A stretch of DNA of 64,000 nt. Origin: Octopus vulgaris. Its lineage: Eukaryota. Made by a program: the position numbers and the translations under genes. The DNA lies in assembly GCA_951406725.2 (NCBI GenBank), contig OX597817.1, positions 57,102,001-57,166,000 on the forward strand. The letters are read 5' to 3'. The notes below the pieces were generated by a model, which did not search any database, had not been told where the DNA came from, and worked only from the letters and a program-made list of their open reading frames with translations. This document shows, one piece after another, positions 193 through 32,934 of this stretch. Each line of letters starts with the position of its first letter. The first letter of the stretch is position 1.

Positions 193-356
193 TTGTAATA
201 TTTTTCAATATTTTTGCTAGTCACCAATTTTGGTCCAATTCCATGAATTTTAACAGCCTCTTCACGCTCTGGGTAATAGGCATATAGTGACCGAAATGCA
301 CAACCTGTGTCCCGGAATAATATCACAAAATGCTTTGCATCGGATTTCGCAATTTC
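193..356 (-). CDS. Patronin: CAMSAP/patronin exon, CKK domain (EIAKSDAKHFVILFRDTGCAFRSLYAYYPE...EKYYK)
   Basis: Acceptor ctgcag, donor gtaagt, 164 nt, phase 0->2; CKK signature HFxILFRD. Confidence 0.95.
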
Positions 357-2245: not shown

Positions 2246-2364
2246 CTCTAAGACTTTATTTTTCAGATCTAAGTTCACACATCCTGCTAAACAACAATGA
2301 CTAATGGCGTTGATTATAATGTGACGGTTTGACTTGGAGCTTGGTTTCACAAAGAGTTTGGGAC
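2246..2364 (-). CDS. Patronin: CAMSAP/patronin exon, CKK start (GPKLFVKPSSKSNRHIIINAISHCCLAGCVNLDLKNKVLE)
   Basis: Acceptor ttttccag, donor gtgagt, 119 nt, phase 1->0; hallmark CKK N-terminus. Confidence 0.95.
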
Positions 2365-3046: not shown

Positions 3047-3130
3047 CTGTATAGTCCGAACCAGCAGTTGAACCTGCATCACTGCTACTCTCAGTACTCT
3101 TACCACTCTTCCTACCAAATCGGTACAAGT
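3047..3130 (-). CDS. Patronin: CAMSAP/patronin exon (DLYRFGRKSGKSTESSSDAGSTAGSDYT)
   Basis: Acceptor tttttcag, donor gtattg, 84 nt, phase 1->1; joins to give the conserved (E/D)YTGPKL preceding CKK. Confidence 0.9.
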
Positions 3131-8678: not shown

Positions 8679-9319
8679 ATTTCTCAACGACTCCATTGTC
8701 AACGTAAACATGGCATTTGTAATGTATTCTCAATACTGATTTTTACTCAAGATTTTACAGTAAAAACATTCTTCTTAAATCTGAAATACTTTCAATGTCA
8801 ACCAAAAGTCAAGCATCAACCCTAAGTCAAACGTCTTGACTGGGTTAAGTGAGTTGTAGAACAAGACGTACAGACAGACACTGCTGTGAATAAACACTAG
8901 AGGTGTCAGCAGTTAATGTTATCAAACTGCAATATGAAATTTCAAGACAATTCATAGAACTATATAACCGTATACAGAATGGAAGAAGGGATTCCTGATA
9001 AATGGTCAACTCTGATCAATTACAGAATCACATTAACACAAACATCAGAGCTCCCAATCAACAATTCTTTCAAAGTAAAGACTAAAAATGTGGTGAAAAG
9101 TGTATAAAAAGAATACTACAAAACTAAAAGTGATGTAAAGTGTCTAGATCCCATCAGCAGCACCACCACCATCTACAGCAACTCTAGCTTTGTCACTACA
9201 CCCACCACCACCGTTTCTATCATGCCAAGAGTCAGTCCCCAACTAGTATCTACAGAGATGTTTGTACGTCGGAAGCAGTAAAACTGCCACATGCAGTCGG
9301 ATGAACAAAGAATATTTAC

Positions 9320-9391
9320 CTGGGGATGGTGGCCGTCTGCCAGTTCCGTAACGACCAGAGTGATTTTGTTGTGTGAATAGGCTCATCATCA
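9320..9391 (-). CDS. Patronin: CAMSAP/patronin 72-nt exon B (VMMSLFTQQNHSGRYGTGRRPPSP), paralogue of 10622-10693
   Basis: Pyrimidine tract ttcttcctcttcctctag, donor gtaaat, phase 1->1, open frame, same length and GRRPPSP ending as exon A. Confidence 0.8.
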
Positions 9392-10017
9392 CTAGAGGAA
9401 GAGGAAGAACAATCAAAACAGCCCCTCCTAGAACTCCATCTTCAGGCTAGGTCACTTTAACGACAGCCTGGGTCAGGGAGTTAGTTTGTCTCAAGACTTA
9501 CAATGATATTTGGAAGGTTTACTTCATGCAAATGATTATTGTTTCATTAGGTGACACGGGAAGAGGGAGAAAAATAATTTATTTAATATTATCCAGTAAC
9601 AAGTAGGTGACAGAATGGACAATTTTTGAATTTAGACAAAAATTTATTCTATCTGAAACTCACTAAAGTTTAAAATATAAACTTAAAACGTTTTGAAAAA
9701 AGACTAACCAAGTTCTTAAATTTATTGGATGAGTGAGGTTTAATTTCTTTACTTACACATTATATATAATTAATAAATGTTTAATTAATATCTGTAATTT
9801 ATTTTTATATACTTCATAACAATATATAACCCCTACTCTCCCTGCTGTCAAGGTTGATTCTAACATCCAAGCGTTTGTTAATTTACCATTTCAGTGTTGG
9901 TGCAAATGATCTGTAGAACTAAACCATGATTCTTCAATCCAAATTAATTTTCAAAATAAAAATAAATCACGACTACAATTTTCAAGTGACAGACCATTTG
10001 GGAATTTACAGTCAATA

Positions 10018-10297
10018 CCCATGACTTTCAGAAACATTTTTTTCATTTTCACGCTCAGAATTGCTGAAGCATGGAATAAACTACCCACATCAGTTGTTGG
10101 CTGTTGGGATGCTATGTCCTTCAAAACTTCCTGAAATTCGCCAACAGTACACCTGATGTCCCCCAACCTTTATTTTTTTTTTTTTGTTAGCAATTCATTT
10201 ACTGTCCATGCACTTTTGGCTACTTTGTTCTGATGGGTTGTGGTGCACCTGAGCGCACTGTAAACATTAAGTTCAATGTTGTTATTATTATTATTAT
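10018..10297 (+). mobile_element. CR1 LINE 3' fragment
   Basis: Similar to 1732-2087 (catgactttcagaaacatttttt...gctgaagcatggaa...tggtgcacctgagc...(att)n). Confidence 0.85.
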
Positions 10298-10621
10298 ATA
10301 AAGTTGTAGAAGGAAGACAAAACTAGAGAAACCTTGTTTATAATGAGAAAGAATTTAATGACTCGTCCAGTATTCATTTCAGCACAATTTTACTAATCAA
10401 ATTCAGCTCTGAACTGAGCTGAACTGGACTGGACTGGACTGGACTGGTTTCAACCGGTCTGGACTAAATGCTAATTCCATTCAAGTAAAGAATTTCAAAT
10501 TTAAAAAAGAAAAAGAAAAAAAATCAGTTCACATGAACTATTAAGATAAAGTTTATCCAACGCAAGAAGCAGGTGAAAAATGATAGGAGCTAATTAGATT
10601 AATTCTGAAGTAGTAGTATAC

Positions 10622-10693
10622 CTGGAGATGGGGGTCTTCTGCCAAAGTTAGTGCGCCCCGAGTTGCCTTGATTTGCCAGTAAGTTCATTGACA
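10622..10693 (-). CDS. Patronin: CAMSAP/patronin 72-nt exon A (VSMNLLANQGNSGRTNFGRRPPSP)
   Basis: Acceptor ttcttttctttgtag, donor gtatac, phase 1->1, open frame. Confidence 0.8.
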
Positions 10694-11178
10694 CTACAAA
10701 GAAAAGAAGAAAAGAAAAATTAATTATACCGAAGATTGATTAGTTTCAAAAGTAACATTTTTATTGGAAATTCAATATATACATTTATGTAAATTAATTT
10801 ATTTAATTAGAATCAGTGTGATTTTAACTATTGCACTAATTTCCTAAGTACATTAAGAAGAATAAAATTAAACATTTCAAATAACGACAACTGGCTACAA
10901 AAATATAAAGTCCCAAGGTTTATAAAATAATTTTAATGTTTAATAAGGTTTACAGAGAATTTATAAAACAATTAAGATATAAATAACAGCAATAAAGAGA
11001 CATCTTTCATATTCATAGGCTTCAAGTGGTGACAGTAAGATTCAGTATTTTTAGAACTATACAAAATCCCACATTAAAAACAAGCAAGACCAATGCTTTG
11101 GCAATTAGGCATGCAGACGCAATTAAATTTCAAGTAATCTTTGAAAATTATCCTGAGAAACTTTAAGACATGACTACT

Positions 11179-11933
11179 TTAACACATTAACCACCACACG
11201 TCTCCAATGGGAGTTCACTGCAAACTTCCCACAACCTTCGTATGCACCGCCAGTGGTACATCATCATCATTTAACATCCATTTTCCGTGCTAGCATGGGT
11301 TGGACGGTTCAACTGGGATCTGGGAAGCCAGGAGGCTGCACCAGGCTCCAGTCTGATCTGGCTGTGTTTCTACAGCTGGATGCCCTTCCTAACACCAACC
11401 ACTCAGTGAGTGTAGTGGGTGCTTTTTACATGCCACCAGCACAGGTGCCAGGCGAGGCTGGCAATGGCTGCGATCGGTTGGTGCTTTTTACATGCCACCG
11501 GCACAGAAGCCAGTCAAGGGGGCGCTGGTAACGGCCACGTCCGGATGGTGCTTTTCACATGCCACTGGCACAGGGATCACAACTACAATTTCCATTTGAT
11601 ATTTATTTTGATGTTGATGCACTTGACTCAATAGGTCTCCTCAAGCACAGCAGGTCACGCGCCACCACAGAAGCCAGTCAAGGCGGCGCTGGCATCAGCC
11701 ACATTCAGATGGTCAGAATTTTTGAGAAAATATTTTTATTCTGTATCTTTGACATGTATTCCAGGATATTTAAACTAACATGAATGCTAAATACCAAAGT
11801 TTAATTATGAAATATCGTAAAAATGCAAAAAAAAAAAAAAAAATCCCATTTCCTTGTAATTGAACATTTTCACTGGAAATATGTGGTGTCACCAGTAAGG
11901 TCCAGTAACAGGCTGCAGTGATTAATGTGTTAA
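11179..11933. mobile_element. TTAA-flanked piggyBac-like MITE hosting an RTE-tailed repeat (~11260-11715, minus strand)
   Basis: ttaacacattaaccac ... gtgattaatgtgttaa; internal catcatcat-ttaacatcc...ctacagctggatgccc. Confidence 0.65.
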
Positions 11934-16673: not shown

Positions 16674-16715
16674 CTGCTTTCCGGAGTCCGGACCGAGAAT
16701 AGTGAGGGATGCGTG
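16674..16715 (-). CDS. Patronin: CAMSAP/patronin 42-nt small exon ([S/A]RIPHYSRSGLRKA)
   Basis: Acceptor tctatcttcctacag, donor cag/gtttgt (same donor type as 52469 and 50908), phase 1->1, open and CpG-rich unlike flanks. Confidence 0.7.
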
Positions 16716-18687: not shown

Positions 18688-18720
18688 CTCTGGCTGGTGC
18701 TGGGCTGGATAGGCTTATCC
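18688..18720 (-). CDS. Patronin: CAMSAP/patronin 33-nt microexon (WISLSSPAPAR)
   Basis: Long pyrimidine tract tttcttttctccatttcatctgttgcttag, donor gag/gtacag, phase 1->1, open. Confidence 0.6.
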
Positions 18721-19539: not shown

Positions 19540-21765
<2,226 letters not shown>

Positions 21766-25300: not shown

Positions 25301-26754
25301 ACCAAACCCCAAGACAACAACCCCTGCTGACAAATATAGCAAGAAACAGTTGGAAAAAACAAATTAATAACATAACAACAACAATAAAACAAAATAATAA
25401 TAAATTTTGATAGCTAGTTCAATAAGGAGTAAAGTAAACTAGATTTGGAGGAAATTAATGACGGTTAGTGTTGGTAAAAGAAAAAACAAAAAAAGTAACA
25501 TTTAATAAAATTTGTAAAATAAGGTAAGTTTAATGCCGTGATAAGAGATGAGTCCTGTTGCTTCTGGTCAAATCTTGGAATTAATAAGGATGCAGGCATT
25601 TCTTAGATGAAGGACTGCACCAGAAACATCACAACTCATCACTTCCCACATCACACTAACTTTTTTTTTTCTCATTTTCCAAACTCCAATAAAATAAGAT
25701 GAGGGAAGAAACAATTGACTGAATTAATTTAAAACTAAAAAGGGGTACTCATACATCTGTTTAATTTCTATTCGACTGGCTTAGATTTGCTAAGTTCATC
25801 TACAAAACTTTTGATGCTATGCTACCAAAGTTTCAGTCTGAACACCACTGGCTAATATCCAATATACCTTTGCAGCAGCAAATGCCATGTTGTAAACCCA
25901 TTTTGATAACCTCCAATTGGGATGGTCCTGCAGGCCAGCTTGTAGAGAGCAGTGGCCCAGATTTAGCTTCAAAAAGGAAAATAAAAATACAAATAAAATC
26001 AGAAGACAGTCATTACTCCGTCTAGTAAGATTAGAGAACTAAGGTGTCAGTAGAGGCCTTTTCAATGGTATCATCCTGAAAACAAAAGATTTTTTCATTT
26101 TTCTATTTTCAAAGAGCATTAATGATAGAGTAATCTAGTTTGTTGAACGTTTAAAGAGTTGAATTAGCTAAATTATTTAGAACAGTTTTAATTACATGAG
26201 CAAGGAAGTAATAATGTCAAGGAGTTATGTATTTCATAAGGGATGGACCCTAACACTTCAGCCATAGCAAGCAGTCCACTACCAAGGACAGGATCCAAGA
26301 GAACAAAGAGAACAGAACACTCAGATCTGAGGCCAAAGACATCTTGGAGTGTCTACCATTTATCTTCTCTAAGTTTTACTCAACAACCAAGAGTCACATC
26401 AACCCTTTCCCTGTCCTGTGTATAACATGGGATACACAGGGAATATCTCCCTGGCGTTCAAGCATCATATATGATACACATTCCTAATTCTGTTTCCAAT
26501 GACCAGAATAACTTGGGACTTGTGAAAGCAAAGCTTTATATTATTCAGAGGGTATGAAACAAGGGCTGGCGTTTATATATGATGCACAGGACACTTGGCT
26601 GATAATCTAAGGTCACAATACATATAAATATATAGATAACCTACCAACTAATACAGTATCAAAATACATTACTCACCAACTAAACCAAATTAACTTCCAA
26701 TAACTAAAAAGTTTGAAAACCAGCATGGCTGCTTAGGAGAGGGTACCTTTTTGA

Positions 26755-32638: not shown

Positions 32639-32934
32639 AGTTACTGTTTGAACTAGTAGGACTGCTGAATCCTCGCCCTGCAATGTCTTCCTGTGAACTT
32701 GTCGAATGAATACTACTAGCATCATCTTCACCAACCTCGGGAGGTTTCGATGAACGCACTATCATGCTCTTTGGACGTGGTTTGGGATTCCGAGCTGGAC
32801 GCTCGTAACGATCAGTTGGTGGATTCTTTTCGTCGTCTTCCTCCTTTCTCTTCCGTTCCTTATATTGTTGCAGAATCATCTGCCTGCGCGCCTTTTCTTG
32901 CTCTTTCCTCTGAGCTATTTCTTCCTTCTTCAAC
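32639..32934 (-). CDS. Patronin: CAMSAP/patronin exon, CC3 second half and basic linker (LKKEEIAQRKEQEKARRQMILQQYKERK...KPRPKS...)
   Basis: Acceptor ttctag, donor gtaagt, 296 nt, phase 2->1; RR..I...Y..RK and KPRPKS motifs of CAMSAPs. Confidence 0.93.

What the first reader, a model, noticed from the sequence alone, without database searches (positions are those of the whole stretch)
9320..10693. Tandemly duplicated 72-nt exons, probably mutually exclusive, just upstream of the CKK domain
Seen: two phase-1/phase-1 exons of identical length 1.2 kb apart encode VSMNLLANQGNSGRTNFGRRPPSP and VMMSLFTQQNHSGRYGTGRRPPSP. They share SGR and GRRPPSP despite heavy synonymous divergence, so both look to be under selection. 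A TGCATG (RBFOX-type) element lies ~25 nt downstream of exon B's donor (9290-9295). Inference: isoform switching in the basic linker next to the microtubule minus-end-binding domain. Only exon A completes RKAVSM, a basophilic kinase-like site, with the 42-nt exon.
Basis: partly seen in the sequence, partly recalled or inferred. Interest (0 to 1): 0.7.

Follow-up and report, generated by a model that had tools for sequence, protein, structure and literature searches.

The report
Optional duplicate exon in octopus CAMSAP
An octopus gene for a microtubule-end protein (CAMSAP/Patronin) carries an old duplicate of a short exon that is spliced in after the original, not instead of it, adding a second copy of a conserved basic motif that likely tunes how the protein binds microtubules; this is a fairly ordinary kind of splicing already present in public gene models.

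Summary
The two 72-nt exons are real duplicates (A 10693-10622, B 9391-9320, minus strand; 13 of 23 residues identical) in the octopus CAMSAP/Patronin gene, but they are not mutually exclusive. Contigs of 4 of 4 runs laid (4 studies, guessed RNA) join A directly to B across the 1230-nt GT-AG intron. Of 25 cephalopod proteins spanning the linker, 14 carry A only, 11 carry A+B, none B only. So A is the anchor and B an optional add-on, kept in Octopus, Argonauta and Sepia. B adds +3 charge and a second RPPSP. A single RPx[S/T]P sits in this linker in 31 of 32 molluscan representatives; the snail Gigantopelta has its own optional second copy and Mytilus can skip it. The upstream 42-nt exon, which completes LRKAVSMNLL with A, is optional in 13 of 16 molluscan isoform groups. 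Likely role: splicing sets linker charge (+2, +5, +6, +9) and the number of kinase-type sites beside the CKK domain; untested. The isoforms are already in public annotations; no paper on them was found. Verdict: real and conserved, modest interest.

The parts
10622..10693 (-). Exon A, 72 nt, phase 1-1; counterpart of the single-copy module of other molluscs; present in every linker-spanning cephalopod protein seen
   Evidence: cover and joint
9320..9391 (-). Exon B, 72 nt, phase 1-1; tandem duplicate of A, optional (cassette), spliced in after A
   Evidence: joint 9391-10622 in 4 of 4 runs; 11 A+B against 14 A-only proteins
9392..10621 (-). Intron between A and B, 1230 nt, GT-AG; removed as a unit
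   Evidence: table 5 (ends CT..AC on the + strand)
9290..9295 (-). TGCATG (RBFOX-type hexamer), +25 to +30 after B's donor; role untested
9525..9530 (-). Second TGCATG, 139 nt before B's acceptor; role untested
16674..16715 (-). 42-nt optional exon (R42) ending ...LRKA; with exon A it builds LRKAVSMNLL across the junction
3047..3130 (-). 84-nt exon between B and the CKK domain (DLYRFGRK...DYT)
   Evidence: in all 25 spanning proteins by the definition used
2246..2364 (-). First CKK-domain exon (PF08683 positions 1-40)
193..356 (-). Second CKK-domain exon (PF08683 positions 37-94)
18688..18720 (-). 33-nt optional linker exon of some Octopus isoform models (ISLSSPAPAR)
25868..25969 (-). 102-nt optional linker exon of some Octopus isoform models; not in the Argonauta or Sepia-cluster proteins seen
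32639..32934 (-). Exon holding the end of the last coiled coil and the start of the linker; upstream of the optional exons (start approximate)

Best explanation
Exon B is an old tandem duplicate of exon A in octopus CAMSAP/Patronin that is spliced in after A or skipped, giving A-only and A+B isoforms, and its inclusion likely tunes microtubule binding by adding three positive charges and a second RPPSP kinase-type site to the linker before the CKK domain. Shown: the duplication, the A-to-B splice joint, A-only and A+B proteins in Octopus and the Sepia cluster, A+B in Argonauta, and no B-only protein in the set seen. Shown by counting: net charge from RPKSM to the CKK start is +2 (A), +5 (A+B), +6 (R42+A) and +9 (R42+A+B), the same in Octopus and the Sepia cluster. 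A and B each carry +3, so a swap would not change charge while an addition does. Inferred: the duplication predates the octopus-cuttlefish split and, since other molluscs mostly have one copy, arose in the cephalopod line; RPxSP is a phosphorylation site for an RPx[S/T]P-directed kinase (DYRK, CDKL5 type); the more basic, longer linker raises lattice binding or CC3-linker condensation, and phosphorylation would offset it; B inclusion may be promoted by an RBFOX-type protein through the downstream TGCATG.
For: Joint 9391-10622, skipping 1230 nt with GT-AG ends, in 4 of 4 runs from 4 studies, depth 107.8, 131.8, 60.6, 13.6. Tally 14 A-only, 11 A+B, 0 B-only, 0 neither among 25 of 31 fetched cephalopod proteins that span the linker; 4 of these come from Logan contigs of public runs: P0026, P0029, P0030 A-only and P0027 A+B. 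B is 20 of 23 identical Octopus-Argonauta and 16 of 23 Octopus-Sepia, with GRRPPSP unchanged. In 31 molluscan representatives scored, R-3, P-2, S0, P+1 were always found while position -1 varies (P 26, A 2, T, L, V); the motif occurs 0 times in 44,018 other residues of those proteins and in 0 of 51 mostly vertebrate hits. Copy number varies by isoform elsewhere: Gigantopelta 1 or 2 (second copy RRPPTP keeps a phospho-acceptor), Mytilus 0 or 1, Haliotis 0 or 1. RPX(S/T)P is the DYRK1A consensus (PMC6873902, passages); RPX(S/T)[A/G/P] the CDKL5 consensus (PMC11335273, passages). In fly Patronin, CC3 and the CC3-CKK linker drive condensation that raises CKK binding to microtubules (bioRxiv 10.64898/2026.10.03.756418, section 9). 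Basic disordered CKK termini engage tubulin tails (PMC6940360, passages).
Against: The A-only joint (A to the 84-nt exon) was not seen directly in reads, because that exon lay outside the stretch laid; skipping rests on gene models and three Logan-derived proteins of the Sepia cluster. The runs are only guessed to be RNA, are contigs, and were picked for holding this stretch, so they lean to B-including samples and give no inclusion level or tissue. Isoform models of O. vulgaris and O. sinensis are near-identical and not independent; 8 of the 23 members of the Octopus cluster were never listed. No phosphorylation, binding or localisation data exist here. B has diverged more than A (16 against 20 of 23 between Octopus and Sepia). 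One Babylonia protein left out has RQPPSP, not RPxSP, hence 31 of 32. TGCATG also lies near the 84-nt, 33-nt and second CKK exons, so the hexamer is not specific to B.
Confidence: 0.75

Rival explanations
1. A and B are mutually exclusive exons and A+B is leakage.
For: Same length, phase and reading frame, homologous sequence: the usual predictors. On the fly X chromosome only 0.56% of exons share these features while being constitutive or differentially included (PMC3228551, passages).
Against: A-to-B joint is the best-supported row common to all 4 runs, with depth of the same order as the cover over exon A. 0 of 25 proteins are B-only; 11 are A+B. No enforcing feature: 1230-nt intron, candidate branch point 25 nt before B, both introns GT-AG, A+B stays in frame, and only short AT-rich inverted repeats around the exons.
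Confidence: 0.03
2. Both exons are constitutive, an internal repeat, and A-only models are artefacts.
For: All 4 runs laid show the A-to-B joint at high relative depth; B's donor matches the U1 consensus at 8 of 9 positions against 6 of 9 for A. Most tandem duplicated exons end up constitutive (PMC8373072, passages).
Against: 14 A-only proteins from Octopus (three species names) and the Sepia cluster, three of them from Logan contigs of public runs.
Confidence: 0.07
3. B is an optional but nearly neutral spacer in a disordered linker, kept because it is harmless; inclusion has no functional effect.
For: B changes faster than A; the linker tolerates several other optional exons of 33 and 102 nt; no functional data.
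Against: Length, frame, splice sites and GRRPPSP are kept across Octopus, Argonauta and Sepia while synonymous sites have diverged strongly (pS 0.68); the same motif has an optional second copy in Gigantopelta.
Confidence: 0.15

Closest known systems
Tandem duplicated mutually exclusive exons (Dscam, muscle myosin, SCN2A type; PMC3228551, PMC8373072)
   Same: Adjacent homologous exons of equal length and phase, born by tandem duplication, both under purifying selection.
   Different: The copies are joined to each other in transcripts and no B-only form was seen; it is an addition, not a substitution.
Tau 3R/4R splicing (recalled; 3 or 4 repeat isoforms are named in the abstract start of PMC6415897)
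   Same: An optional copy of a repeated basic module changes the repeat number in a microtubule-associated protein.
   Different: Unrelated protein and sequence; here the module lies in a linker beside a folded CKK domain, and direct microtubule binding by the module is untested.
CAMSAP/Patronin family (CH, coiled coils, CKK PF08683)
   Same: The host gene: PF08683 over cut-off in the window; window exons match proteins named Octopus CAMSAP with PF11971, PF17095, PF25532, PF08683. Linker isoform variety also in Rhodnius patronin.
   Different: The RPx[S/T]P motif is absent from 51 of 51 mostly vertebrate hits; the whole-exon duplicate was seen only in the three cephalopod clusters.
AMPK-related kinase sites, LxB(S/T)xSxxxL (PMC8057676, passages)
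   Same: R42+A gives LRKAVSMNLL: L at -5, basic at -3, L at +4, much like the listed HDAC4 site PLRKTAS*EPNL.
   Different: Ala, not Ser/Thr, at -2; no proline at +2; phosphorylation not shown; the site is assembled by a splice junction.

Membership tests
Mutually exclusive exons | Adjacent internal exons of like length, frame and sequence | tested here: met
   72 nt each, phase 1-1, 13 of 23 residues
Mutually exclusive exons | The two exons are not joined to each other | tested here: not met
   A-to-B joint in 4 of 4 runs; 11 of 25 proteins carry both
Mutually exclusive exons | Each exon occurs alone in some transcript | tested here: not met
   14 A-only, 0 B-only of 25; 8 Octopus cluster members unseen; B-only joints could not be read
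Mutually exclusive exons | An enforcing mechanism (steric block, frame shift with decay, U2/U12 mismatch, docking-selector pairing) | tested here: not met
   1230-nt GT-AG intron, proximal candidate branch point, both in frame; no convincing pairing (single species only)
Cassette exon from tandem duplication | Homology to the neighbouring exon | tested here: met
   score 67, 0 of 100,000 shuffles
Cassette exon from tandem duplication | Inclusion form exists | tested here: met
   11 proteins
Cassette exon from tandem duplication | Skipped form exists | tested here: met
   14 A-only proteins, 3 from Logan contigs; not seen directly as a read joint in this genome
RBFOX-regulated exon | (T)GCATG close downstream of the donor | tested here: met
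   +25 to +30; chance about 0.02 within 50 nt at the gene's own density
RBFOX-regulated exon | Element conserved in distant relatives; inclusion depends on RBFOX | not testable with these tools
   no relative genomes held; PF12414 search of the own genome was uninformative
CAMSAP/Patronin | C-terminal CKK domain | tested here: met
   PF08683, E 4.4e-17 and 1.5e-10, over cut-off
DYRK/CDKL5-type substrate site | RPx[S/T]P sequence | tested here: met
   RPPSP in A and B; consensus
DYRK/CDKL5-type substrate site | Phosphorylated by such a kinase | not testable with these tools
   needs phosphoproteomics or a kinase assay
AMPK-related kinase site | LxB(S/T)xSxxxL | tested here: inconclusive
   3 of 4 flanking features met; Ala at -2; hydrophobic -5, basic -3 and L/M +4 in 21 of 21 molluscan proteins that carry the site

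The most novel reading that the evidence does not exclude
The molluscan CAMSAP linker is a splice-set phospho-rheostat for microtubule minus ends: one optional exon builds an AMPK/MARK-type site across its junction throughout molluscs, and the number of RPx[S/T]P sites is dialled 0, 1 or 2, with the second copy invented independently in coleoid cephalopods (whole exon) and in at least one snail (11 residues), so tissues choose which kinases control non-centrosomal microtubules.
Probability: 0.3. Interest if true: 0.55.

Novelty: new member of a known kind. Interest (0 to 1): 0.3.

Why it matters
As it stands it is a well-conserved cassette exon that public gene models already contain, and a caution that equal-length homologous exons need not be mutually exclusive. 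If the functional reading holds, it gives a defined four-isoform series (linker charge +2, +5, +6, +9) and two conserved candidate phosphosites for testing how the CC3-CKK linker and kinases regulate CAMSAP/Patronin at minus ends; the linker was recently shown in fly to drive condensation and raise CKK binding.

Tried and rejected
No read evidence covers the A-to-84-nt-exon joint or the upstream-to-B joints: the one stretch laid (8900-11700) held only A and B, and its loose-end table was filled by a high-copy repeat at about 11250-11700 (754 rows not shown). The run search listed no holder on record as RNA; the runs are guessed RNA. Docking-selector pairing: only short AT-rich inverted repeats, rejected. 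Third exon copy in the window: none. RBFOX gene in the own genome: PF12414 rang nowhere, uninformative. The donor score printed for the first CKK exon used a boundary 2 nt off and was not used. P0338, an exact 42-residue doubling in an arthropod-like protein, was set aside as a possible assembly artefact; P0256 (RRPPSPRGRPPSP, unnamed gastropod-like) is only a lead. Two papers recalled on CAMSAP linkers were not held, so their claims are not used. Literature: 'octopus+cephalopod+camsap' gave 1 unrelated review (listing only); the Patronin splicing search gave nothing on molluscs among 20 of 60 listed. Subscription papers and supplements were not searched. Earlier scan findings: none near or by words. 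No structure was predicted, since the region is a low-complexity linker.

Full report
Observation. They share 43 of 72 nt and 13 of 23 residues; 7 of the 13 shared codons differ synonymously, and pS is 0.68 against pN 0.33. The match is far beyond chance (0 of 100,000 shuffles; next best six-frame hit in the window scores 21 against 67), and exon B has a single match in the own genome. TGCATG lies at +25 to +30 after B's donor; at the gene's own density the chance of one within 50 nt is about 0.02.

The gene. PF08683 (CKK) matches two exons at the left end of the window. Window exons match proteins named Octopus CAMSAP at about 95-100% per tblastn segment for the O. vulgaris models, with two segments lower where they run over exon edges. 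The linker between the last coiled coil and the CKK domain is built from: an exon ending at 32639, optional exons of 102 nt (25969-25868), 33 nt (18720-18688) and 42 nt (16715-16674), exon A, exon B, an 84-nt exon (3130-3047), then the CKK exons.

Splicing. Laying contigs of four public runs (four studies, two organism codes, guessed RNA) on 8900-11700 shows a joint from 9391 to 10622 that skips exactly the 1230-nt intron with GT-AG ends, in 4 of 4 runs, at depth 107.8, 131.8, 60.6 and 13.6. A is therefore spliced directly to B. Of 31 cephalopod proteins fetched, 25 span the linker: 14 have A only, 11 have A+B, none has B only or neither. Four come from Logan contigs in the Sepia cluster: three A-only, one A+B. 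Limits: the A-only joint and any B-only joint could not be read; contigs give no inclusion level; the two Octopus annotations are not independent; 8 of 23 Octopus cluster members were not listed. No feature that would force exclusion was found: the intron is long, a candidate branch point lies 25 nt before B, A+B keeps the frame, and the inverted repeats are short and AT-rich.

Conservation. B is present in Octopus, Argonauta and the Sepia cluster (20 of 23 and 16 of 23 identical to Octopus; A 23 and 20 of 23), so the duplication predates the octopus-cuttlefish split (inference). Other molluscs carry one module of the form S[C/M]NTL...GG.T[H/Y]RRPxSP-DL. In 31 molluscan cluster representatives an RPx[S/T]P was always found within 110 residues of the CKK start, with the middle position free (P 26, A 2, T, L, V); it occurs 0 times in 44,018 other residues of these proteins and in 0 of 51 mostly vertebrate hits. 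Left out of that count were two Mytilus isoforms that skip the motif and one Babylonia protein whose anchor was missed and which reads RQPPSP; with it the count is 31 of 32. Annelid, arthropod and sea-urchin proteins show RRxx[S/T]P at a like place in several but not all cases. Copy number varies among isoforms of one species: 1 or 2 in Octopus, the Sepia cluster and Gigantopelta (an optional 11-residue GGATYRRPPTP, a separate duplication by inference), 0 or 1 in Mytilus and Haliotis.

The 42-nt exon. Where present, the site has M/I/L at -5, a basic residue at -3 and L/M at +4 in 21 of 21 proteins, which meets 3 of the 4 flanking features of the AMPK-related consensus LxB(S/T)xSxxxL (PMC8057676, passages).

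How it likely works. A and B each carry net +3, so exchanging them would leave the charge unchanged; adding B does not. Linker charge is +2, +5, +6 and +9 for A, A+B, R42+A and R42+A+B, identical in Octopus and the Sepia cluster (the Octopus-type +5 value is from Argonauta P0003, whose B has the same charge). In fly Patronin the CC3-CKK linker with CC3 drives condensation that raises CKK binding and stabilisation (bioRxiv 10.64898/2026.10.03.756418, passages and section 9); CC3-CKK of CAMSAP2 also condenses (PMC9239687, passages); basic disordered CKK termini contact tubulin tails (PMC6940360, passages). RPPSP fits the DYRK1A and CDKL5 consensus (PMC6873902 and PMC11335273, passages), and MARK2 is reported to phosphorylate mammalian CAMSAP2 (PMC12058119, listing only). 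I infer that B inclusion makes a longer, more basic linker with a second proline-directed site, tuning lattice binding or condensation. This step is untested. RBFOX control of B is plausible from position (downstream sites promote inclusion; recalled), but the hexamer also lies near 3 other of 16 exons checked and conservation could not be tested.

Comparison and novelty. It fails the membership test for mutually exclusive exons and passes that for a duplicated cassette exon. Most tandem duplicated exons are not substitutions (PMC8373072, passages), though look-alike exons that are co-included are uncommon in fly (PMC3228551, passages). It works most like Tau 3R/4R splicing (recalled) without being related. 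The A-only and A+B isoforms are already in public Octopus and Sepia gene models. I found no paper describing them (open-access library only, supplements not searched). Verdict: new member of a known kind; interest 0.3. The wider molluscan pattern of splice-built and splice-counted kinase-type sites is the more interesting lead.

Noticed in passing
window 16674-16715 (-) and molluscan homologues: The exon ending [M/I/L]RKA is optional in 13 of 16 molluscan isoform groups and builds an AMPK/MARK-type site across its junction with the next exon.
   Followed up: partly
P0047, P0155-P0158 (Gigantopelta aegis): Optional 11-residue second copy of the motif (RRPPTP), apparently an independent duplication; unnamed P0256 also shows a doubled RPPSP.
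   Followed up: partly
P0059-P0061, P0173-P0186 (Mytilus); P0206 (Haliotis): Isoforms that skip the RPPSP segment altogether (6 of 17 Mytilus, 1 of 6 Haliotis).
   Followed up: partly
window 25868-25969 (-): 102-nt optional exon seen only in Octopus models, with an unusual Cys-Cys-Cys stretch; may be a young exonised sequence.
   Followed up: no
window about 11250-11700 and 10030-10220: High-copy interspersed repeats in the introns around exon A; contig depth of 10^4-10^5 and 10^3.
   Followed up: no
P0161, P0163, P0169 (Mya), P0219, P0221 (Ruditapes), P0049 (Mactra): A further optional linker exon (Y/D-F-F/Y-TLPR-K/S) in clams, used alone or, in one Ruditapes isoform, together with the RKA exon.
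   Followed up: no
P0203, P0231, P0254, P0255: Very long gastropod CAMSAP isoforms (2700-3100 residues), about 1000 or more longer than the usual form.
   Followed up: no
window 19612-21552: A 1.9-kb (AT)n tract inside the gene.
   Followed up: no
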